Below are positions 3,494 through 44,051 of a stretch of 46,105 nt of DNA, one piece after another. Positions within the stretch are counted from its first letter, which is position 1. Each line of letters begins with the position of its first letter. The translations under genes and the position numbers were made by a program. The stretch covers positions 1-46,105 of the forward strand of contig JBBQWJ010000001.1 of NCBI GenBank assembly GCA_038210685.1. Reading direction: 5' to 3'. The DNA is from Chitinophagales bacterium (GTDB lineage: Bacteria > Bacteroidota > Bacteroidia > Chitinophagales > Chitinophagaceae). A model generated the notes under the pieces. That model saw nothing but the letters and a program-made list of their open reading frames with translations, did no database searches and was not told the DNA's origin.

Positions 3494-5272
3494 ATGACTC
3501 CCACACGACTATTTGATTGTATTGAGATGCAGTTAAAAGATGCACCGAACCACACTATGTTGGCTGGAAAAGAAAATGGACAATGGAAAGAATATACAAC
3601 TGTAGAAGTATCTGAAATTGTAAATAAGCTGAGTTCGGGTTTACTATATTCAGGCATTGCGCCGGGCGATTTTTCTATTGAAGGGAGGGATAAGGTGGCT
3701 GTTATTTCCAAAAACCGGCCTGAATGGGTGATGCTTGACCTGGCGGTTCAGCGGGTAGGTGCTGTGTTGGTTCCGGTTTATCCTACCATCAGTGATATTG
3801 AACTGGAGTTCATTTTAAAAGATGCCAACGTAAAATTAGTTTTTGTAAACGACTACGAATTATTTGAAAAAGCCAACCGTATAAAAGGCAATCTTCCGAA
3901 TCTTAAAGAAATTATTTCGTTTGAAGAAATTGACGACGTAAAACATTGGAAAGAACTGTTGCTGCCTCTTACAGAAAATATTCTTGGCGAAATTCAAATT
4001 ATTTCAGATAAAATAAAATCGGAGGATCTTGCTACAATAATTTATACCTCAGGCACCACGGGAACTCCAAAAGGAGTAATGCTATCACACCGAAATATTT
4101 TAAGTAATGTTATGGATAGTATGCCTTGTTTCCCACCGGGAGAAAATATGAAAGCGCTGAGTTTTTTGCCTCTTAATCACATATTTGAGCGAATGATCAG
4201 CTTTTTGTATTTGTTTAAAGGAACAAGCATTTTTTTTGCAGAAAGTATTGATACCATTCCTCAGAACCTGAAAGAGGTTTGCCCTGATATATTTGCAACA
4301 GTTCCAAGATTATTAGAAAAAGTGTATGAGAAAATAATGGATAAAGGCAGTGAATTAAAAGGGATAAAGAGAAGATTATTTTTTTGGGCGCATCGGCTTG
4401 GATTAAAATATGATGTAAATAAAAATCTTGGATTTCTTTATAATCTTCAATTGGCGCTGGCTAATAAATTGATTTTTAATAAATGGCGCGAGGCGCTTGG
4501 GAATAATATTGTATGCATCATCAGCGGCGGTGCTGCCTGCCAGGTGAGGCTTTTAAAGATTTTTACGGCAGCTAAACTTCCAATAATGGAAGGCTATGGC
4601 CTTACTGAAACTTCACCGGTGATAAGCGTGAATCGCTTTGAAGAAAGTGGAAGAATGCTGGGAACCGTTGGCCCTCTAATTGAAAACGTGGAAGTAAAAT
4701 TTGGTGAAGACGGAGAAATTTTATGTAAGGGGCCTAATGTGATGTTGGGGTACTATAAACATCCGGAATTGACTGCTGAATGCATGCAGGACGGATGGTT
4801 TAAAACCGGCGACATAGGAGTGATGATTGGCGATTTTTTAAAAATTACTGATCGTAAGAAAGAAATTTTTAAAACCAGCGGTGGAAAATATGTAGCTCCG
4901 ATAGCTATTGAAAATAAATTAAAGGAGTCGAGATTTATAGAAAATATAATGGTGCTGGGCGCAGGCGAAAAATTTGTGAGCGCTTTGATAGTTCCTTCAT
5001 TTCCCAATTTAAAAACCTGGTGTAGTGCGAATGATATTGATTGTACTGATAAGTATAAAGCAGTTAACAATCCGCAGGTTAAAGAATTCTTTCAAAAGGA
5101 AATTGCGCGTTATGATAAATTTTTCAGTCATGTAGAACTGGTAAAGAAATTCGAATTACTTCCCAATGAATGGTCTACTGCAAATGGCGAACTAACACCA
5201 AAACTTAGTTTAAGGCGCAAAGTAATAATGGAAAAAAATAAAGAAGCGATCAGGAACATTTATTCGGTTTAG
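3494..5272 (+). CDS. Long-chain fatty-acid--CoA ligase (AMP-binding)
   Basis: IIYTSGTTGTPKG, EGYGLTET and GWFKTGDIG motifs; ATG at 3494 preferred over GTG at 3485. Confidence 0.92.
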   Translation: MTPTRLFDCIEMQLKDAPNHTMLAGKENGQWKEYTTVEVSEIVNKLSSGLLYSGIAPGDFSIEGRDKVAVISKNRPEWVMLDLAVQRVGAVLVPVYPTISDIELEFILKDANVKLVFVNDYELFEKANRIKGNLPNLKEIISFEEIDDVKHWKELLLPLTENILGEIQIISDKIKSEDLATIIYTSGTTGTPKGVMLSHRNILSNVMDSMPCFPPGENMKALSFLPLNHIFERMISFLYLFKGTSIFFAESIDTIPQNLKEVCPDIFATVPRLLEKVYEKIMDKGSELKGIKRRLFFWAHRLGLKYDVNKNLGFLYNLQLALANKLIFNKWREALGNNIVCIISGGAACQVRLLKIFTAAKLPIMEGYGLTETSPVISVNRFEESGRMLGTVGPLIENVEVKFGEDGEILCKGPNVMLGYYKHPELTAECMQDGWFKTGDIGVMIGDFLKITDRKKEIFKTSGGKYVAPIAIENKLKESRFIENIMVLGAGEKFVSALIVPSFPNLKTWCSANDIDCTDKYKAVNNPQVKEFFQKEIARYDKFFSHVELVKKFELLPNEWSTANGELTPKLSLRRKVIMEKNKEAIRNIYSV

Positions 5273-5319
5273 ACAGTAAACCAACAAATATTCCTGTTTT
5301 TTAATTTACTGAATGGCAA

Positions 5320-8676: not shown

Positions 8677-8772
8677 TTTCTCTTTAAAAAATTGAAAACA
8701 GGAATCTTAATTATTTATTTATTTGCTGTGCACTTTTCTTTAAATGTATTTAAAAACTAAAAATTAAAAAAA

Positions 8773-12862: not shown

Positions 12863-13858
12863 TTGAAAAAAATCTTTCTCGCAGTCTGTCTTTGCCTTCT
12901 GTATCAAAATATTTTTTGTCAACAAATCAGCATATGTGCAGACAGCATTCCATCTTCCTTCCGTGGGCTAAGCGTTGTGAGTAATAGTCTGCTGTGGGTT
13001 AGTGGAAGTAATGGCACTATCGGAAGAAGTACCGATTCAGGAAAGAATTGGAAATGGATGAAAGTAAAGGGATTTGAAAAAACCGATTTCAGGGACATTG
13101 AAGCATTTGATGAAAAGACGGCAGTTATTATGGGCGTAGATGAGCCGGCCTATATTTTAAGAACAACCGATGGCGGTGATACCTGGAAGGTGGCCTATAA
13201 AAACGATAGCAAAGGAATGTTTTTAGATGCAATTGATTTTTGGGATAAGGAAAACGGAATTGTAGTTGGCGATCCGGTAAATGGGCGCTTTTTTATTGCA
13301 AGAACTTTTGATGGCGGAAAAACGTGGCAGAATATTCCGGAAGAAAATAAACCCATTACAGATAGCGGTGAAGCATGCTTTGCAGCAAGCGGCACCAATG
13401 TAAGAGAACTAAATAAATCAGAACCTGTTATTATTTCAGGAGGTTTAACTTCCCACATTTTTATAAGTGATAAAAAAATATTGCTTCCTATTTTGCAGGG
13501 AAAAGAATCAACCGGCGCCAATTCTATTGCTGTAAAAAACAGTAAAACGATAATCGTTGTAGGAGGAGATTTTTTAGAAAAAGAGTCCAAAAAAGGGAAT
13601 TGTGCGTTGTCGGTAGATGGTGGGAATAGCTGGATGCAGCCACAAACGCCACCTTCTGGCTACAGAAGTTGTGTTGAATATTTATCCAAAGATAAATGGA
13701 TCACCTGTGGTTTAAATGGCGTTGATATTTCAAATGATAATGGAATGAATTGGAAAAAAATAAGCGATCAAAGTTTTAATGTTTGTCGCAAGGCAAAAAA
13801 AGGAAGTGCTGTTTATTTCGCTGGGGCAGGAGGGAGGATTGGAAAATTTGAACAGTAA
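12863..13858 (+). CDS. YCF48/BNR-repeat beta-propeller protein (exported)
   Basis: Repeated Asp-boxes (STDSGKNW, TTDGGDTW, TFDGGKTW, SVDGGNSW); a TTG start at 12863 gives a signal peptide (track start 12791). Confidence 0.85.
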   Translation: MKKIFLAVCLCLLYQNIFCQQISICADSIPSSFRGLSVVSNSLLWVSGSNGTIGRSTDSGKNWKWMKVKGFEKTDFRDIEAFDEKTAVIMGVDEPAYILRTTDGGDTWKVAYKNDSKGMFLDAIDFWDKENGIVVGDPVNGRFFIARTFDGGKTWQNIPEENKPITDSGEACFAASGTNVRELNKSEPVIISGGLTSHIFISDKKILLPILQGKESTGANSIAVKNSKTIIVVGGDFLEKESKKGNCALSVDGGNSWMQPQTPPSGYRSCVEYLSKDKWITCGLNGVDISNDNGMNWKKISDQSFNVCRKAKKGSAVYFAGAGGRIGKFEQ

Positions 13859-13902
13859 ACGAACAAAATAGCTGGATTTTTATTTGATTTATAGATTCCT
13901 TT

Positions 13903-16023: not shown

Positions 16024-16173
16024 GAATTATTAGATCACAAAGAAAGATAAATTTTGGTTGTTTTATTTTGTGAAATGCTTAAATAATAAAAGGATTGTGT
16101 TTGGCTCAAGTTTATGCTAAACAAAAAAGAGAAATCCCCATTATTTCTTTGTTTACTCCACTTCAATAAAAAA

Positions 16174-21946: not shown

Positions 21947-21979
21947 TCTTTCCAGCAAATAAACAAATAAAACGGATTT

Positions 21980-22540
21980 TTATTTTATTCGCTGAGGATT
22001 TTGCACCAGGAAATCTTTCCATCCATTTAGTTTTTTGGATGAATCCTTTATTAAGGTATTTCCCTGGAAATGGTGGCACACTGCCACTGCAAGTGCATCA
22101 GTTGCATCAAAAGATTTTGGATCTTCTTCAAAAACAATAAGCCGCTGCAGCATTTTCAATACTTGTTGTTTATCAGCATTTCCATTTCCGGTGATAGATT
22201 GTTTAACTTTTCGTGGTGAATATTCTGTAACGGGAATGCCGGCCTGCATTGCGGCTGCAATGGCTACACCCTGCGCGCGGCCCAGCTTTAGCATGCTTTG
22301 CACGTTCTTTCCAAAGAAAGGAGCTTCAATAGCAAATTCATGCGGGCAAAATTCAGTGAGCAGTTCACAAACTTTTTGGTATATGATCTGCAATCTTTCG
22401 TAAGTATCTTTTTTAGGAGAAATTTTCAGTACATCCATAATGATCAAGGTCATTCCTGAAGAAGAAATTTCAATGATTCCAAAACCCATAAACAACGTTC
22501 CTGGATCAATGCCTAAAATGATTTTTGAATTTGTATTCAA
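21980..22540 (-). CDS. ruvC: Holliday junction resolvase RuvC
   Basis: ILGIDPG, AIEAPF, KLGRAQG and DATDALAVA motifs; TTG at 22540 likelier than 22591. Confidence 0.95.
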   Translation of the reverse strand: MNTNSKIILGIDPGTLFMGFGIIEISSSGMTLIIMDVLKISPKKDTYERLQIIYQKVCELLTEFCPHEFAIEAPFFGKNVQSMLKLGRAQGVAIAAAMQAGIPVTEYSPRKVKQSITGNGNADKQQVLKMLQRLIVFEEDPKSFDATDALAVAVCHHFQGNTLIKDSSKKLNGWKDFLVQNPQRIK

Positions 22541-26863: not shown

Positions 26864-26977
26864 TTAAAATAAATAAAGCATCCAAAATAATGAAAATATT
26901 TTACAGTACGTTTCTTTTATAAAATAAGATTCTGCATTATTTGTTGCTTTACTGCATCTGCGTAGCCTGAAGCCGGA

Positions 26978-28188: not shown

Positions 28189-29067
28189 TCAATACAACTC
28201 ATCCAGTTTCATTCTCAGGTATTTGAGCGCCGATCTATGCGTACTTAAAAGTGTGATGCATATTCCAAGAATAACAATGCCTCCAAAGATCAACAGCATG
28301 TTTTTTGTATCGTGCAATATCTGTAAATAAGGAATAAATTTTTCTGAAATAGTTATAAATCCGAACATCAGGCCGATGGCGATGGCGGAAGCAATAATGC
28401 CGTTTATAATAGCGCGGCCATCAAGTGGACGTGTTATAAACCATCTTGTAGCACCCACCATTTGCATCGTTTTTATGAGGAATCGGTTGCTGTACATCGC
28501 AAGCCTTATCGTATTATCAATTGAAACGATCACCAAAATCGATAAGAGGATGGCGACCACAAGCAAAACGATAGTGGTGGTTTTTACAAACTGGCTAACA
28601 CTTGCAACCGTTGCTTTAGGCGTTTGAAATTCAGATAATGTATGCGGGAAATTGGCAGTCAGCGAATCTTCTAAATTCGCCAGGCTGTCTTTGTTAACAT
28701 AATTCGCTTTTACATAAAAATCAATACTCTCAGGCAGGGGATTACTGATTGCCAGCTTTTTCCAAAGTGTGTCATTTTCCTGGTTGTATTTTGCGATCGC
28801 TTTTTCTCGAGTGATATATTCCACTTTCACAGCATATGGAAGTGAATCGATATAATTTTTTAATGAATCGATCTGATCATCTGAGGCAGTTCGGTATATG
28901 TAGGCATGAAGCTGGATATTTTCTTTAAAATAATCGCCGGTTTTTTGGATGTTCAGGAAAATCCACGCTACTATTCCAAAAAGAAACAATACCAAAGAAA
29001 CACCTATGATTGCATAAACATAGGATGGTTTTCCGCGTTTGGTGGATGCTTTACCGAATTGGGCCAT
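28189..29067 (-). CDS. ftsX: Cell division permease FtsX
   Basis: NPLPES and IDNTIRLAMYSNRFLIKTMQMVGAT motifs; four TM segments. Confidence 0.93.
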   Translation of the reverse strand: MAQFGKASTKRGKPSYVYAIIGVSLVLFLFGIVAWIFLNIQKTGDYFKENIQLHAYIYRTASDDQIDSLKNYIDSLPYAVKVEYITREKAIAKYNQENDTLWKKLAISNPLPESIDFYVKANYVNKDSLANLEDSLTANFPHTLSEFQTPKATVASVSQFVKTTTIVLLVVAILLSILVIVSIDNTIRLAMYSNRFLIKTMQMVGATRWFITRPLDGRAIINGIIASAIAIGLMFGFITISEKFIPYLQILHDTKNMLLIFGGIVILGICITLLSTHRSALKYLRMKLDELY

Positions 29068-29110
29068 AATGATAAGGATGAATTTATTTTTTACCTTTTT
29101 TCTACTGCGG

Positions 29111-29147
29111 CAAAAATAAATGATTTTAAACAGGTTTAGTATTTTTG
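29111..29147. promoter_or_regulatory. Divergent -7 boxes for ftsX (29111-29118, minus) and leuS (29140-29147, plus)
   Basis: TATTTTTG on each strand, back to back. Confidence 0.6.
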
Positions 29148-29328
29148 CGCCTTCGCAATTGATAGCTAATGTAATTTACATAAGCCATTGAAAACAGTGA
29201 AAACAAATCAATAACATTTCTTTCACAAAAAATTGCAAAATGATCTTGCCCGGATCCTGCCTGGTAAAGGATTTTAGGTTTCATTTGCAATAAAACAATA
29301 AAAATTGATTGGATTTTAATAACAAAGA

Positions 29329-32300
29329 ATGGAATATAATTTTAGAGAAATAGAGACCAAATGGCAGGATGCCTGGAAGGAAACAGGGATTTATCATGTG
29401 AGTAACTCATCAGATAAACCCAAATATTATGTGTTGGATATGTTTCCTTACCCAAGTGGTGCAGGATTACATGTGGGCCATCCTTTGGGATACATTGCAA
29501 GTGATATTTATGCCCGATATAAAAGATTGAAAGGTTTTAATGTGTTGCACCCAATGGGTTTTGACAGTTTTGGTTTGCCGGCTGAACAGTACGCAATTGA
29601 AACCGGCCAGCATCCCATAATAACAACCGAAAAAAATATTGCCACTTTTAAAGATCAATTGGATAAGATCGGTTTTTGCTTTGACTGGAGCCGTGAAATA
29701 AAAACGAGCGACCCTGAATATTACCGCTGGACACAATGGATTTTTTTACAAATTTTCAATAGCTGGTTCAATCCTAAAAGCAATAAAGCGGAATCAATAG
29801 AAACACTGGTAAATATTTTTGAAACAAACGGTTCATCTGAGTTTGAAACTGCTCATTCTTTTATTGCTGAAGAGTGGAAAAATTTTGATGAAAAAAAGAA
29901 GCAAGAAATTCTTATGGATTTCAGGCTTGCGTTTTCTTCTTATGGCGAAGTGAACTGGTGTGAAGCGTTAGGAACCGTTTTGGCAAATGATGAAGTGGTA
30001 AACGGAGTGAGTGAACGTGGGGGTTATCCTGTAGAAAAAAAGAAAATGAGGCAATGGTATTTAAGGATAACAGAATATGCTGACAGATTACTTGAAGGAC
30101 TGGAAACAGTTGATTTTAGCGATGCGATGAAAGAAATGCAGCGCAACTGGATTGGCAGGAGCGAGGGAGCGGAGATGAAATTCACAATTGACCACTTACC
30201 ATTTACAATTGACGTATACACCACCCGCCCGGATACCATTTTCGGAGTAGATTTCTTGGTTCTTGCCCCCGAACATGAACTGGTAAATGAAATTACTACT
30301 GATGTACAACGGTCATCAATAGACGAATATCTTAATTACGTAAAAAGCAGGAGCGACAGGGAAAGAATGGCTGAGGTGAAACAAATTACCGGTTGTTTTA
30401 CGGGTGCATACGCGATAAATCCTTTCGATGGCCGAAAAGTTCCTATTTGGATTGCAGAATATGTGTTGGCGGGTTACGGCACAGGCGCTATCATGGCAGT
30501 TCCTTGTGGCGACCAAAGGGATTTTGATTTTGCTACCTATTTTAAAATTCCAATCACCAATATTATCGGTGATCATTATAACGGAAAAGAAGCGAACCCG
30601 ACGAAGGAAGCAGTTTTGCAAAATTCCGGGTTTCTTGATGGTCTGTTGATGAAAGATGCGATAGGAGTGGCGATCAATAAAATAGAAGAATTAAAAATAG
30701 GAAAGCGAAAAGTAAATTACAGGATGCGAGATGCTGGCTTCAGCCGTCAAAGGTATTGGGGTGAGCCATTTCCGATTATCTGGAGTGACGGAGTTGCTGT
30801 TCCTCTTGATGAAAAAGAATTGCCTTTGGAATTGCCTTTCGTAGAAAAATATGGCCCCGGAAAAGAGGGCGAAGGACCATTGTCTAATTTAATTGATTGG
30901 GTGACAGTTGAGGTCAATGAAGCTTCGCAACATTTAAACCTCACCCCCGACCCCTCTCCTAAGGAGAGGGGGGAAGAAGCTTCAGGATATATAACTTCTG
31001 AAGCTTCAACTTGGAAAAAATTAAAACCCTTTGCCAGGGAAAACAGAAAGAATCCTACAGAAGCTGAAAATTTACTTTGGGAAAATGTAAGAAATAGAAA
31101 TATCAGTAATTGTAAATTTAGGAGGCAACATGCTATTGAAGGATTTATTGTTGATTTTGTTTGTCTTGAAAAAATGCTGGTAATTGAAATTGATGGTGAA
31201 TATCATTTAGAGGATGAGCAAAAGAAATATGATGAATCGAGAACTGAATATTTGAATGAACAAGGATTTAAGGAATTAAGATTTACTAACCAGGAAGTTG
31301 AAAAAAACATTCCGGGAGTTCTTACAAAAATCCGCGAAGAGTTAACTCAATGTTCCCCTCTCCCCGGGAGAGGGGTTAGGGGTGAGGTTAAAAAGGGCAA
31401 ACGTGAAACCTCTACCATGCCCGGTTATGCCGGCAGCAGCTGGTATTTTCTTCGTTATATGGATCCTCATAACAACCAAACTTTTGCTGATAAAAAAGCC
31501 ACTGATTACTGGAACCAGGTTGATGTGTATATAGGTGGAACCGAACACGCTGTTGGACATTTATTGTACAGCCGTTTGTGGACAAAAGTTTTGTACGATT
31601 TAGGTTATATAAGTTTTGATGAGCCATATAAAAAGTTGGTGAACCAGGGGATGATACAGGGAAGTAGCAGGTTTGTGTACAGGTTAGATAAATATCAAGT
31701 TCAAAATGAAAATTCGCTTGATTATATAGAAAATCAAGTGCTCTTCTTATCGTTAGACTTTTATAATAAGTTGCGAGATTTTGAGAATTTTGAAAATAGA
31801 ATGGAGGCAATAAAAATAATTGACGGTTTTTTAAGTGTAGAAAATAACAAAATTGGGAATACTTATTCAACAAGTGTAACTCCAATTCATGTTAATGTAA
31901 ATATTGTTGATGGAGTTGAATTAGATATGGAAGCTTTCAAAAAGTCAAAACCGGAATATGCCAATGCTGAATTTATTTTAGAAGATGGAAAATACATCTG
32001 TGGAGTAGAAACAGAAAAAATGTCCAAATCAAAATACAACACGGTAAATCCAAATGATTTGGTTGATAAATATGGTGCTGATACTTTTCGTATGTATGAA
32101 ATGTTTCTCGGTCCGGTAGAACAAAGCAAACCGTGGGATACCAAAGGCATTGAAGGTGTTCATCGTTTTCTAAAAAAATTATGGAGATTGTTTTTCGATG
32201 AGCAAAAAGGTAAAGTTTGGAATGAAGAAAAAGCAAATGATGCTGAATTAAAAACCCTTCATAAAACCATTAAAAAAATTGAAGAAGATACTGAACGTTT

Positions 32301-32700
32301 TTCTTTCAACACGGCAGTAAGCGCTTTTATGGTTTGTGTAAATGAACTGACAGATCTTAAATGTCATAAAAAAGAAATCCTTGAACCGCTGTTGATTTTA
32401 CTTGTCCCTTATGCACCGCATATTGCTGAAGAGTTGTACCATGTTCTTGGAAATGCTGATTCAATTTTAAATGCTGAATATCCCAAACTGGAAAATAAAT
32501 ATTTGGTTGAATCTGAAAAGGAATATCCTATTTCTATCAATGGAAAATTAAGAACAACGATGATTATTTCTCTAGAAGCATCTCAAAAAGAAGTTGAAGA
32601 AATGGTTCTTGAAAATGAAATTGTACAAAAATGGATTGAAAGCAAACCAATAAAAAAGATAATTTTTGTGAAGAATAAGATGGTGAATGTGGTAGTGTAA
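29329..32700 (+). CDS. leuS: Leucine--tRNA ligase with an internal DUF559 insertion
   Basis: MFPYPSGAGLHVGH, editing-domain YTTRPDT and GTGAIMAVP, SRQRYWGEP and KMSKS motifs; 1123 aa is oversized. Confidence 0.97.
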   Translation: MEYNFREIETKWQDAWKETGIYHVSNSSDKPKYYVLDMFPYPSGAGLHVGHPLGYIASDIYARYKRLKGFNVLHPMGFDSFGLPAEQYAIETGQHPIITTEKNIATFKDQLDKIGFCFDWSREIKTSDPEYYRWTQWIFLQIFNSWFNPKSNKAESIETLVNIFETNGSSEFETAHSFIAEEWKNFDEKKKQEILMDFRLAFSSYGEVNWCEALGTVLANDEVVNGVSERGGYPVEKKKMRQWYLRITEYADRLLEGLETVDFSDAMKEMQRNWIGRSEGAEMKFTIDHLPFTIDVYTTRPDTIFGVDFLVLAPEHELVNEITTDVQRSSIDEYLNYVKSRSDRERMAEVKQITGCFTGAYAINPFDGRKVPIWIAEYVLAGYGTGAIMAVPCGDQRDFDFATYFKIPITNIIGDHYNGKEANPTKEAVLQNSGFLDGLLMKDAIGVAINKIEELKIGKRKVNYRMRDAGFSRQRYWGEPFPIIWSDGVAVPLDEKELPLELPFVEKYGPGKEGEGPLSNLIDWVTVEVNEASQHLNLTPDPSPKERGEEASGYITSEASTWKKLKPFARENRKNPTEAENLLWENVRNRNISNCKFRRQHAIEGFIVDFVCLEKMLVIEIDGEYHLEDEQKKYDESRTEYLNEQGFKELRFTNQEVEKNIPGVLTKIREELTQCSPLPGRGVRGEVKKGKRETSTMPGYAGSSWYFLRYMDPHNNQTFADKKATDYWNQVDVYIGGTEHAVGHLLYSRLWTKVLYDLGYISFDEPYKKLVNQGMIQGSSRFVYRLDKYQVQNENSLDYIENQVLFLSLDFYNKLRDFENFENRMEAIKIIDGFLSVENNKIGNTYSTSVTPIHVNVNIVDGVELDMEAFKKSKPEYANAEFILEDGKYICGVETEKMSKSKYNTVNPNDLVDKYGADTFRMYEMFLGPVEQSKPWDTKGIEGVHRFLKKLWRLFFDEQKGKVWNEEKANDAELKTLHKTIKKIEEDTERFSFNTAVSAFMVCVNELTDLKCHKKEILEPLLILLVPYAPHIAEELYHVLGNADSILNAEYPKLENKYLVESEKEYPISINGKLRTTMIISLEASQKEVEEMVLENEIVQKWIESKPIKKIIFVKNKMVNVVV
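30182..30216 (+). repeat. Five imperfect tandem heptamers inside leuS
   Basis: TCACAAT TGACCAC TTACCAT TTACAAT TGACGTA; encodes FTIDHLPFTID. Confidence 0.6.
30937..30971 (+). repeat. Left palindromic repeat
   Basis: AACCTCACCCCCGA-CCCCTCTCC-TAA-GGAGAGGGG; internal 9-bp hairpin. Confidence 0.92.
31355..31389 (-). repeat. Right palindromic repeat (inverted copy)
   Basis: Reverse complement AACCTCACCCCTAA-CCCCTCTCC-CGG-GGAGAGGGG; 30/35 identical to the left copy. Confidence 0.92.
32653..32700 (+). repeat. Direct repeat copy 1 (3' end of leuS)
   Basis: 48 bp, 45/48 identical to 33300-33347. Confidence 0.92.
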
Positions 32701-32845
32701 TTTTATAAAAGAAGATTCTTTTTTTTTGTTTGTTTACTGTTCTTTAAAATGTTTTCCACAGTGAAATTTGTATTGAATTGCTCATCGCCTAAATTCAATT
32801 TTTAAAAAGTTATTTTTATTTGTACAACTAATAAAGTAAAAATTA

Positions 32846-33229
32846 ATGGAAGCAAAAAGGTCAGGAAATACGACAGATCACTTAGCCAACGAACGGACAT
32901 TTTTGGCGTGGATGCGAACCAGTATCGGAATTATGGCTTTCGGTTTTGTTGTGGTAAAGTTTTCTTTGTTTTTAAAGCAGGTATCTCTCATTTTAGGAAA
33001 AGAAAATATTATTCAAAACCGAGGCTACTCTGCCATTGTGGGTATTCTTTTAGTGGCGGTTGGCACCCTTACTTCCATTTTATCATATCTAAGATACAGG
33101 CAATCTGAAAAACAAATAAATGGAGGAACTTATAAACAATCAACGTTGCTTATTAGTATTATTACCGCGTTTATATTTATAGTAAGTGTTTCTTTAATTG
33201 TTTACCTAATCCGTAGTACGGGGTTTTAA
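32846..33229 (+). CDS. DUF202/YidH family membrane protein
   Basis: DHLANERTFLAWMRT motif; three TM segments. Confidence 0.92.
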   Translation: MEAKRSGNTTDHLANERTFLAWMRTSIGIMAFGFVVVKFSLFLKQVSLILGKENIIQNRGYSAIVGILLVAVGTLTSILSYLRYRQSEKQINGGTYKQSTLLISIITAFIFIVSVSLIVYLIRSTGF

Positions 33230-33299
33230 AATCTTTGTAAGGAACTGATTTTGTTGAGACCAAAAATTCTTTTTTTAAAGGCCTTAGTAAAAACTTGTG

Positions 33300-33347
33300 A
33301 AAAAGATAATTTTTGTGAAGAATAAAATGGTGAATGTAGTGGTGTAA
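33300..33347 (+). repeat. Direct repeat copy 2 (displaced leuS 3' end, att-like)
   Basis: Encodes the same KKIIFVKNKMVNVVV-stop; three synonymous differences. Confidence 0.92.
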
Positions 33348-33670
33348 ATTCTCTCAATATTCCAGTAAATAAACAAATAAGGGGATTTTTTATTTTATTT
33401 GCCGGCAGAGTTCCTGCCATTAATCAATCCTTCTATAAATTGGCCCGCCTAACTGAATAATAAAAATTAAGATGATGGCCCTTTTAAAATTTTGCTGGCT
33501 TAATAATTTTTTCATGTAATTATTTTGAAATCCAAATTAACCAATAAAATCTTTCATTTTTGTTGATTTACTACAAGCATCTAATTGATCAGTTAAAATA
33601 AATCCGTCTGCGTTTTTTAATTAACAATTTTATCGGAATTTTAGAGGAATCAAATTCTATTTTTGTAAAA

Positions 33671-41610: not shown

Positions 41611-41681
41611 TCATTTTTATTTAAGAATAGACCAAAGAAATAAACTCAGACAGTAAACAAAGAAATTTTTACTTTTCTTAT

Positions 41682-41990
41682 TTATCTATCAAACTTTTCG
41701 CGCCAGGCGAGCATCCCGCCCGTTAGATTTTTTGTATTGGAAAACCCCATCTGGTCCAATATCATTGCTGCCACACCGCTTCTGCCACCACTACGGCAAT
41801 ACAAGATTACTTCATCATTTTTAAGATCTTCAATATCTTCTATTTGCATGTTTTGAATGTTTCCTAATGGAAGTGCAACACCACCAATGTTGTATTCGGC
41901 TGTTTCTTCAGGTTGTCTTACATCTACAAGATGTAATTTTTCACCTTTGTCCAATCTTGCTTTTACTTCTTCCGCAGAAATGTTCGTCAT
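41682..41990 (-). CDS. Single-domain rhodanese
   Basis: DVRQPEE, YCRSGGRS and NLTGGMLAW motifs. Confidence 0.92.
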   Translation of the reverse strand: MTNISAEEVKARLDKGEKLHLVDVRQPEETAEYNIGGVALPLGNIQNMQIEDIEDLKNDEVILYCRSGGRSGVAAMILDQMGFSNTKNLTGGMLAWREKFDR

Positions 41991-43851: not shown

Positions 43852-44051
43852 GTATTGGCAAATTTAGCGTATAAAATAAATTTAAATTTAGAATAATACT
43901 AATCCCGCGTAAAATAAAATCAAAAATCGTTTTTCAGAAAATAAAAATTTTTAATCGCTTAAATTTTTATACTTGAAACGCGATTTAAAAAAATATCAAA
44001 ACAGAAATCTGCATTATTTATTGCTTTACTATTAACCGTAAGATTTTGTGT

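What the first reader, a model, noticed from the sequence alone, without database searches (positions are those of the whole stretch)
30937..31389. Nuclease cassette with hairpin terminal inverted repeats inserted in frame inside essential leuS
Seen: a 453-bp segment (exactly 151 codons, codon-aligned, aa 537-687) begins AACCTCACCCC and ends GGGGTGAGGTT. Its 35-bp ends are inverted copies (30/35), each with a CCCCTCTCC/GGAGAGGGG hairpin, and are strongly GC-rich in AT-rich DNA. Deleting it leaves ...HL|KKGKRETSTMPG in frame. Between the ends is an apparently intact DUF559 domain (FRRQH, IVDF, EIDGEYH) with no start codon of its own and no intein splice residues. Known: DUF559 is a Vsr-like PD-(D/E)XK nuclease fold, and the site is the variable CP2/zinc-knuckle loop before the RETxT motif. 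From memory and unverified, the repeat resembles E. coli BoxC near fabI/ycjD. Inference: a REP/RAYT-like repeat-plus-nuclease selfish element that persists as a passenger domain in a permissive loop of an essential protein, possibly homing or spreading its repeats.
Basis: partly seen in the sequence, partly recalled or inferred. Interest (0 to 1): 0.9.

Follow-up and report, generated by a model that had tools for sequence, protein, structure and literature searches.

The report
Unspliced nuclease cassette swapping inside leuS
An essential tRNA-charging gene carries, in frame, a small nuclease gene between two folded DNA repeats; near-identical soil strains lack it here but carry a sister cassette at another spot in the same gene, so it is likely a selfish element that spreads by cutting empty copies and is likely translated as an extra protein domain rather than spliced out.

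Summary
Confirmed: leuS (29329-32700) holds an in-frame DUF559 domain between 35-bp inverted ends (30/35). The ends resemble the unexplained TMECO/BoxC triplex repeats of E. coli, where one copy lies beside the DUF559 gene ycjD. One correction: against the closest empty allele the variable unit is 480 bp net, not 453 bp, with no target duplication, so it arrived or left by allele replacement.

Soil contigs about 92-99% identical (mostly 97-99%) have this site empty and a second leuS site filled. In the genus, at least two unrelated nuclease lineages occupy this site across both host clades. Sister cassettes sit inside metH, icmF, acsA, aroC and hsdR. Putative catalytic residues are invariant and dN/dS is 0.04-0.16. 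No intein, Rfam intron or linked transposase was found.

Best reading (0.55): a homing-like Vsr-fold nuclease that survives unspliced in surface loops of essential proteins. Cutting, its target and full-length translation are untested. This scan found the same kind of cassette before on other DNA; my nine literature searches found no description of it.

The parts
29329..32700 (+). leuS, 1123-aa leucyl-tRNA synthetase, uninterrupted frame including the cassette
30903..31395 (+). Presence/absence unit against the closest empty allele (493 bp here, 13 bp there; 480 bp net): leader plus cassette plus 6 bp
   Evidence: table 5c (X2 joint 30902 to 31396); loop 226 vs 66 aa
30903..30936 (+). Leader of about 11 codons that travels with T1-type filled alleles
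   Evidence: similar leader in a run X4 contig (table 5c)
30937..30971 (-). Left end: 9-nt tail (30939-30947), 3-nt spacer, 9-bp hairpin (30951-30971); TMECO-like, type B-like second loop; encodes a low-confidence linker
   Evidence: (4 mismatches to the TMECO consensus)
31018..31344 (+). DUF559 / Vsr-fold nuclease domain, aa 564-672
   Evidence: Pfam E 2.6e-33; PDB 3HRL E 8e-19; separate folded domain in the model
31153..31233 (+). Putative active-site residues D609, E620, D622, H626, D635 (roles inferred from Vsr/EDxHD enzymes)
   Evidence: 81, 81, 80, 81 and 79 of 81 internal cassettes
31355..31389 (+). Right end: 9-bp hairpin (31355-31375), TTA spacer, 9-nt tail (31379-31387); TMECO-like, type A-like
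   Evidence: 3 mismatches to the TMECO consensus
30183..30207 (+). Site A of leuS: empty here, filled by a sister cassette in close soil strains and in many relatives

Best explanation
The segment is a DUF559 nuclease gene between two TMECO-like inverted repeats that sits in frame in a loop of LeuRS, is likely translated as an extra domain without splicing, and likely spreads by homing-like allele replacement. Inferred steps: (1) the domain, still fused to LeuRS, nicks or cuts a cassette-free or scar allele when one enters the cell; (2) recombinational repair copies the cassette plus some flank; (3) it is lost by deletion between the two hairpins, which leaves tail-hairpin-tail scars, or by back-conversion from an empty allele; (4) rarely it reaches a new site, probably by recombination at pre-existing solo repeats, and only in-frame landings in tolerant loops survive.
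For: Shown by calls: (a) Strain-level flips. Soil contigs mostly 97-99% identical have site B empty and site A filled, the reverse of the window. (b) Flank divergence is higher next to the polymorphic sites: 35/671 vs 22/1473 differences, p 3e-6, or p 0.01 with the stricter grouping, as co-conversion predicts. (c) The starred five-genome host clade holding G000 has site B as T1, T2, T2, empty, empty; G000 and G062 share 90% host but 51% nuclease identity. (d) AU tests reject T1 hosts (p 4e-84) and T2 hosts (p 8e-5) as clades, and site-B nucleases as one clade (p 0.008). (e) Nuclease clades are mostly site-specific with occasional jumps: a T1 relative in aroC, a T2 relative at site A. (f) dN/dS is 0.04-0.16 in the 19 computable of 23 internal pairs, with near-invariant acidic and His residues, although 40 of 121 genomes had no DUF559 match. 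(g) Fused and half scars occur at both sites. (h) No intein family, no Rfam intron, no conserved internal start: none in 10 of 21 site-B and 15 of 22 site-A cassettes.
Against: No cleavage, target or expression data exist. The domain lacks the NUMOD DNA-binding region of I-Bth0305I (none), so long-site specificity is doubtful, and a nuclease fused to an abundant enzyme could be toxic. Ordinary recombination can also flip alleles and import diverged flanks without any drive. At site A the divergence peak is on one side only: 15/210 upstream vs 6/507 downstream. The X2 pieces are separate metagenome contigs, assigned to one strain by depth and by agreement with one X3 contig. Site-A nucleases as one clade were not rejected (p 0.18). 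Purifying selection could reflect folding inside an essential protein or a repair role. No close relative was found in viral contigs, so the vehicle is unknown.
Confidence: 0.55

Rival explanations
1. The nuclease recognises and nicks its own triplex/hairpin ends and acts as the mobiliser of the cassette and of the solo repeats, as RAYT does for REPs but with a Vsr fold.
For: Left and right ends are the same repeat class in 98 of 99 cassettes with both ends called, against 0.33 by chance. Repeat class tracks nuclease clade. Genomes with a strong DUF559 have a median of 12 repeat matches against 1 without. For classes III and IV, genomes with the cognate nuclease have more solo copies than genomes with other DUF559 only (p 0.012 and 0.016). 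A TMECO lies beside E. coli ycjD. In a GTDB scan 46 of 62 domains had a repeat-like end on both sides and 16 on one side, across 11 phyla.
Against: For class I, the class of this cassette, there was no cognate effect (p 0.42), and 8 of 46 genomes without a strong DUF559 had 5 or more class I copies. The 99 cassettes fall into only 16 site/class groups, the classes are my own post hoc patterns, the totals include cassette ends, and the GTDB pattern was loose with no shuffle control. Junctions are not clean and show no target duplication. Copies are not scattered at random sites as transposons are.
Confidence: 0.22
2. The repeats spread by some other means and occasionally bracket a DUF559 gene; the nuclease is kept for a host benefit such as mismatch or very-short-patch repair, and the alleles are shuffled by ordinary recombination.
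For: Caulobacter VsrA contains DUF559 and causes a DNA-damage response in cells lacking its methyltransferase (PMC12907096, passages). Solo repeats insert in frame without a nuclease, for example in hsdR of this genome. E. coli ycjD is stable across phylogroups A, B1 and C (PMC12817139, passages). Repeat-rich genomes without DUF559 exist.
Against: A third of genomes had no DUF559 match (40 of 121), and others carry up to nine. A repair gene has no need to sit inside leuS, metH, icmF, acsA, aroC and hsdR. Unrelated nuclease lineages replace one another at the same site.
Confidence: 0.17
3. The two ends pair in the mRNA and the segment is excised or bypassed by the ribosome, so normal LeuRS is made.
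For: As RNA the ends pair into a long stem: -153 kcal/mol, z -5.3, 0 of 100 shuffles as stable.
Against: Any inverted repeat gives such a stem. The frame stays open through nearly all internal cassettes; breaks were seen only in G007, G010 and G015, whose leuS is broken elsewhere too. Removing the 453 bp would not restore the native loop. There is no Rfam intron match, and the domain shows protein-level selection without a start codon of its own.
Confidence: 0.05

Closest known systems
EDxHD (Vsr-like) homing endonucleases, prototype I-Bth0305I (PMC3239194, passages read; PMC2677866, listing only)
   Same: Vsr-type fold and a similar acidic/His motif; site-specific allele families; patchy presence and allele replacement.
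   Different: No group I intron or intein around it and no NUMOD region; sequence match to 3R3P is weak (E 0.043); it stays fused to the host protein and is bounded by triplex-type inverted repeats.
TMECO / BoxC / PIT intrastrand-triplex repeats of E. coli (PMC4666352, passages and section 12 read)
   Same: Same hairpin-plus-third-strand layout; 3 and 4 mismatches to the consensus; an A-type plus B-type inverted pair, as in the E. coli doublets; TMECO 9 lies beside ycjD.
   Different: The paper describes TMECO as always intergenic, with no linked transposase or integrase and unknown origin. Here the repeats are translated and bracket a nuclease; stems are one base longer.
Rickettsia palindromic elements (via review PMC10969869, passages read)
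   Same: Palindromic selfish DNA inserted in frame in unrelated housekeeping genes and translated.
   Different: RPEs are about 150 bp and encode a short peptide, not an enzyme.
REP-RAYT systems (features recalled; PMC3733652 seen as listing only)
   Same: A single nuclease gene flanked by inverted hairpin repeats whose solo copies are scattered in the genome.
   Different: RAYT is an HUH (Y1) enzyme with tetranucleotide-tagged, extragenic REPs; this is a PD-(D/E)XK domain, often intragenic.
Inteins with homing endonuclease domains (recalled)
   Same: In-frame parasite of essential genes, with site-specific alleles.
   Different: No Hint domain or splice-junction residues; it sits in variable loops rather than conserved motifs and is apparently not removed.

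Membership tests
DUF559 (PF04480) / Vsr-like PD-(D/E)XK | Profile match above the curated cut-off | tested here: met
   114.6 bits vs 20.6; 3HRL by sequence E 8e-19 and top fold hit, E 0.003 on a low-confidence model
DUF559 (PF04480) / Vsr-like PD-(D/E)XK | Nuclease activity | not testable with these tools
   Only conservation of D609/E620/D622/H626/D635
EDxHD homing endonucleases | Vsr-like catalytic domain with acidic and His residues | tested here: met
   (residue-to-residue roles inferred)
EDxHD homing endonucleases | N-terminal NUMOD DNA-binding motifs | tested here: not met
   Only 27 residues precede the domain in the cassette; no such Pfam match
EDxHD homing endonucleases | Association with a group I intron or (split) intein | tested here: not met
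EDxHD homing endonucleases | Cleaves the empty allele at the insertion site | not testable with these tools
   Indirect only: allele swaps and flank divergence
Inteins | Hint domain and C/S/T...H-N plus C/S/T junction residues | tested here: not met
   No Pfam intein hit; site-B right junctions vary and lack these residues
Self-splicing introns | Match to group I or II RNA models | tested here: not met
   One chance hit, E 0.84, in 29000-33000
TMECO/BoxC repeats | Published consensus sequence | tested here: inconclusive
   3 and 4 mismatches with loosened loop lengths: same architecture, not an exact match
TMECO/BoxC repeats | Intrastrand triplex formation | not testable with these tools
   Only the Watson-Crick hairpin was folded
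TMECO/BoxC repeats | Intergenic location | tested here: not met
   Inside leuS; other copies in frame in hsdR and icmF
REP-RAYT | HUH (Y1_Tnp) enzyme between the repeats | tested here: not met
   The cassette encodes DUF559; 0 of 29 best-scoring Y1_Tnp loci carry these repeats; weaker RAYT-like hits were not examined
IS elements / MITEs | Terminal inverted repeats | tested here: met
IS elements / MITEs | Target-site duplication and clean ends | tested here: not met
   Loop bases are replaced, not duplicated
IS elements / MITEs | Known transposase in the element, or multiple near-identical copies | tested here: not met
   One other DUF559 in the genome, 51% identical (genome 86% complete)

The most novel reading that the evidence does not exclude
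DUF559 cassettes are the autonomous elements behind the TMECO/BoxC triplex repeats: a new class of selfish DNA in which a Vsr-fold nuclease, working while still fused to an essential enzyme, recognises triplex-hairpin ends, homes between alleles, seeds solo repeats across the genome and colonises protein loops in many phyla without any splicing device.
Probability: 0.3. Interest if true: 0.93.

Novelty: new variant of a known kind. Interest (0 to 1): 0.78.

Why it matters
Known parasites of essential genes remove themselves (introns, inteins) or are short (RPEs). This one appears to stay as a full enzyme domain inside the host protein while still turning over at strain level. It offers a testable candidate for the open origin of the E. 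coli TMECO/BoxC repeats, using ycjD in a laboratory strain. It would also give a function to a widespread domain of unknown function, and it means many 'DUF559 fusion' annotations in synthetases and metabolic enzymes are probably insertions rather than functional partnerships.

Tried and rejected
Expression: no RNA holder was listed, so splicing and expression could not be examined.

Vehicles: no relative in IMG/VR contigs by the pattern scan; 3 weak phage hits in 50,697 records; 38 plasmid records, all under 60% identity.

E. coli empty site: the ycjD segment is present in 3375 of 5426 genomes. The alternative allele in the 2 strains opened begins with a TetR gene, the eefRABCD cluster of PMC12817139, so it gives no clean junction.

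Mobiliser in trans: none found next to the repeats; repeat clusters without DUF559 in G121 and G088 enclosed no mobility gene that I could recognise, judged by eye without a family scan.

Structure: the single-sequence model was weak (pLDDT 57). The full-length model has pTM 0.42 with an unresolved catalytic core, so it supports only 'separate domain on flexible linkers', not exact placement.

An AU test on 63 rows did not finish and was redone on 24 rows. The regex typing mislabelled G089, G107 and G127 and was corrected from the nuclease tree. Nuclease dS was below host dS in 6 of 7 comparable pairs, but the pairs were chosen for nuclease similarity, so I give this no weight.

Rejected: assembly artefact (the whole stretch lies in one X1 contig, though X1 may be the source; independent relatives share the layout); fixed vertical inheritance; intein; intron; IS or MITE; RAYT.

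Full report
OBSERVATION. The 453-bp segment at 30937-31389 is codon-aligned within an open 1123-aa leuS. Its 35-bp ends match 30/35 and each consists of a 9-nt tail, a 3-nt spacer and a 9-bp hairpin. Between them is DUF559, aa 564-672, whose nearest solved relative is Neisseria 3HRL (E 8e-19); I-Bth0305I (3R3P) matches weakly (E 0.043). The closest named relatives are Chitinophagaceae genomes. The site corresponds to the variable turn before RETDT in solved LeuRS. In a full-length model of low overall confidence (pTM 0.42) the insert forms its own domain on low-confidence linkers encoded by the repeats.

TRUE BOUNDARIES. Empty relatives have a 66-67-residue loop and the window has 226, so 160 codons differ, not 151. 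In soil run X2 a contig 95-97% identical to the window joins 30902 to 31396 with 13 other letters. No target duplication is seen at either leuS site; loop bases are replaced. Several T1-type alleles share an extra leader before the left repeat.

STRAIN-LEVEL TURNOVER. The same runs carry a sister cassette at a second leuS site (A, 30183-30207), which is empty in the window. One 2250-nt X3 contig and one 932-nt X2 contig match the window at 96.6-99.3% outside site A and run through the site-A cassette of G015. Differences from the window are denser beside the polymorphic sites: 35/671 vs 22/1473 (p 3e-6), or 41/1178 vs 16/966 (p 0.01) if the piece downstream of site A is counted as near. These are metagenome contigs from one study (P2), assigned to one strain by depth and by agreement between X2 and X3.

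GENUS SURVEY. 81 of 121 genomes have a DUF559 match. At least 19 of 87 genomes of 80% completeness or more have site B filled (top rows). Among 63 genomes where both sites lay on one ORF (a sample enriched for filled alleles), site B was 41 empty, 10 T2, 6 T1 and 6 scar; site A was 29 empty, 17 T3, 16 scar and 1 T2. 'Empty' includes a few small non-repeat indels. At least 13 and 17 filled/unfilled changes are needed on the host tree. G000 sits in a starred five-row clade with G062 and G136 (T2) and G067 and G104 (empty). AU tests reject T1 hosts and T2 hosts as clades (24 rows) and site-B nucleases as one clade (p 0.008), but not site-A nucleases (p 0.18, 38 rows).

OTHER HOST GENES. I fetched most of the strong hits and kept 114 domains of 120, dropping unpublished genomes and domains under 95 aa. 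Hosts named by NCBIfam on 18 representatives include metH (two sites), icmF, acsA, aroC and hsdR internally, 5-prime fusions to trpA, argB and hisA, and an ORF ending in murU; 21 are free-standing. Nuclease clades are mostly site-specific, with jumps: a site-B nuclease groups with two aroC copies (100/94), and a site-A copy groups with the T2 site-B clade (100/96). The tree has only 109 columns. The window's own genome holds a second cassette in icmF and 10 further class I repeats, one in frame in hsdR.

SELECTION. D609, E620 and H626 are present in 81 of 81 internal cassettes, D622 in 80 and D635 in 79. dN/dS is 0.04-0.16 in the 19 computable of 23 internal pairs, similar to the LeuRS backbone. 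There is no conserved internal start codon, so the nuclease is probably made only as part of the host protein.

THE ENDS. They resemble TMECO, a motif shown to form an intrastrand triplex in vitro but not by in vivo footprinting, and for which the authors found no linked mobility gene (PMC4666352). The right and left ends differ from the consensus by 3 and 4 bases and form an A-type plus B-type pair. TMECO 9 lies about 170 bp downstream of E. coli ycjD, with a degenerate hairpin over its stop codon. In the genus I defined four repeat classes by eye; both ends agree in 98 of 99 cassettes (chance 0.33), but these fall into 16 site/class groups only. Class I, IV and III patterns occur in 88, 59 and 68 of 127 genomes (classes III and IV count overlapping matches). 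Among 118 genomes, those with a strong DUF559 have a median of 12 matches against 1. The class-specific effect is weak for III and IV and absent for I, and 8 of 46 genomes without DUF559 have 5 or more class I copies (kin are not independent). Scars at both leuS sites include fused tail-hairpin-tail forms and a two-ended form with a 17-bp interior. The fused form also occurs between genes, so it may be a precursor as well as a product. Beyond the genus, 60 GTDB loci from 11 phyla show repeat-like ends, in either orientation, by a loose uncontrolled pattern and with a query that included end-encoded peptides.

MECHANISM. Shown: in-frame position, patchiness, allele swaps down to near-strain level, replacement of one nuclease lineage by another at one site, purifying selection, conserved ends, scars. 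Inferred: translation as a fused domain, DNA cutting, drive, and the route to new sites. I put homing-like allele replacement at 0.55, an end-recognising mobiliser at 0.22 (not exclusive of the first), a passenger with a repair role at 0.17, and RNA-level removal at 0.05.

PRIOR ART. Searches for DUF559, BoxC (17), Vsr-like homing enzymes (47), synthetase insertions (48), intrastrand triplex with endonuclease (71), ycjD (81), RPEs (72) and two broader combinations returned no paper describing this arrangement; the library lacks most subscription journals. Read as passages: PMC12907096, PMC3239194, PMC10969869, PMC12817139, PMC1189080, PMC3424549 (which groups DUF559 with Vsr and reports no horizontal transfer for the group); passages plus section 12: PMC4666352; listing only: PMC2677866, PMC3733652. 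Supplements were not opened; the TMECO supplementary tables could bear on links to flanking genes. RAYT and intein features are recalled. Earlier unchecked notes of this scan describe the same kind of cassette in other genomes. Tallies include up to three unpublished genomes (G022, G048, G126); no claim here depends on them.

VERDICT. A real selfish-looking element that is still turning over and for which my searches found no description. It works most like a homing endonuclease but fails the membership tests for EDxHD enzymes, inteins, introns, IS/MITEs and RAYTs. New variant of a known kind, with a 0.3 chance of being a new class; interest 0.78.

Noticed in passing
window 32644-32703 and 33291-33350: The last 60 bp of leuS are duplicated (87%) 647 bp downstream, bracketing a DUF202 gene (32846-33229), as if a small segment had integrated at the 3' end of leuS.
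   Followed up: partly
window 31657-31890: A second variable, AT-rich (26-32% GC) stretch inside leuS, with no Pfam match and poorly conserved among relatives. Repeat copies also lie in the 3' part of leuS in G136 and G107.
   Followed up: partly
window 30918-31010: Three copies of a short palindrome around the left end; two form a 12-bp hairpin just inside the cassette.
   Followed up: no
window 5268-5306, 13847-13892, 21947-21992, 33360-33402, 41645-41683; also 8686-8727, 16116-16157, 26915-26953, 43989-44030: An AT-rich intergenic repeat family of about 35-43 nt in both orientations (families D1-D5), possibly promoter or terminator motifs.
   Followed up: no
G000 C122:2065-2747: Second DUF559 cassette in frame in icmF, with shorter class II ends; at least three nuclease lineages use icmF in the genus.
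   Followed up: yes
G000 C277:847-885 and C161:3676-4063: A solo repeat translated in frame inside hsdR, and three same-orientation copies 170-185 bp apart.
   Followed up: partly
L255-L256 (G121 C1:467407-492833): Nine same-orientation class I repeats embedded in longer repeated units, in a complete genome with no DUF559 match.
   Followed up: partly
L204-L222: One cassette site, with shared flanking peptides, is occupied in Bacteroidota, Nitrospirota and Ignavibacteriota; the host looks like a DNA methyltransferase subunit (recalled, not scanned).
   Followed up: no
L191 (E. coli K-12 fabI-ycjD-sapF): ycjD with its TMECO stands in place of the eefRABCD operon in 3375 of 5426 genomes; the repeat link is not mentioned in the passages read.
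   Followed up: partly
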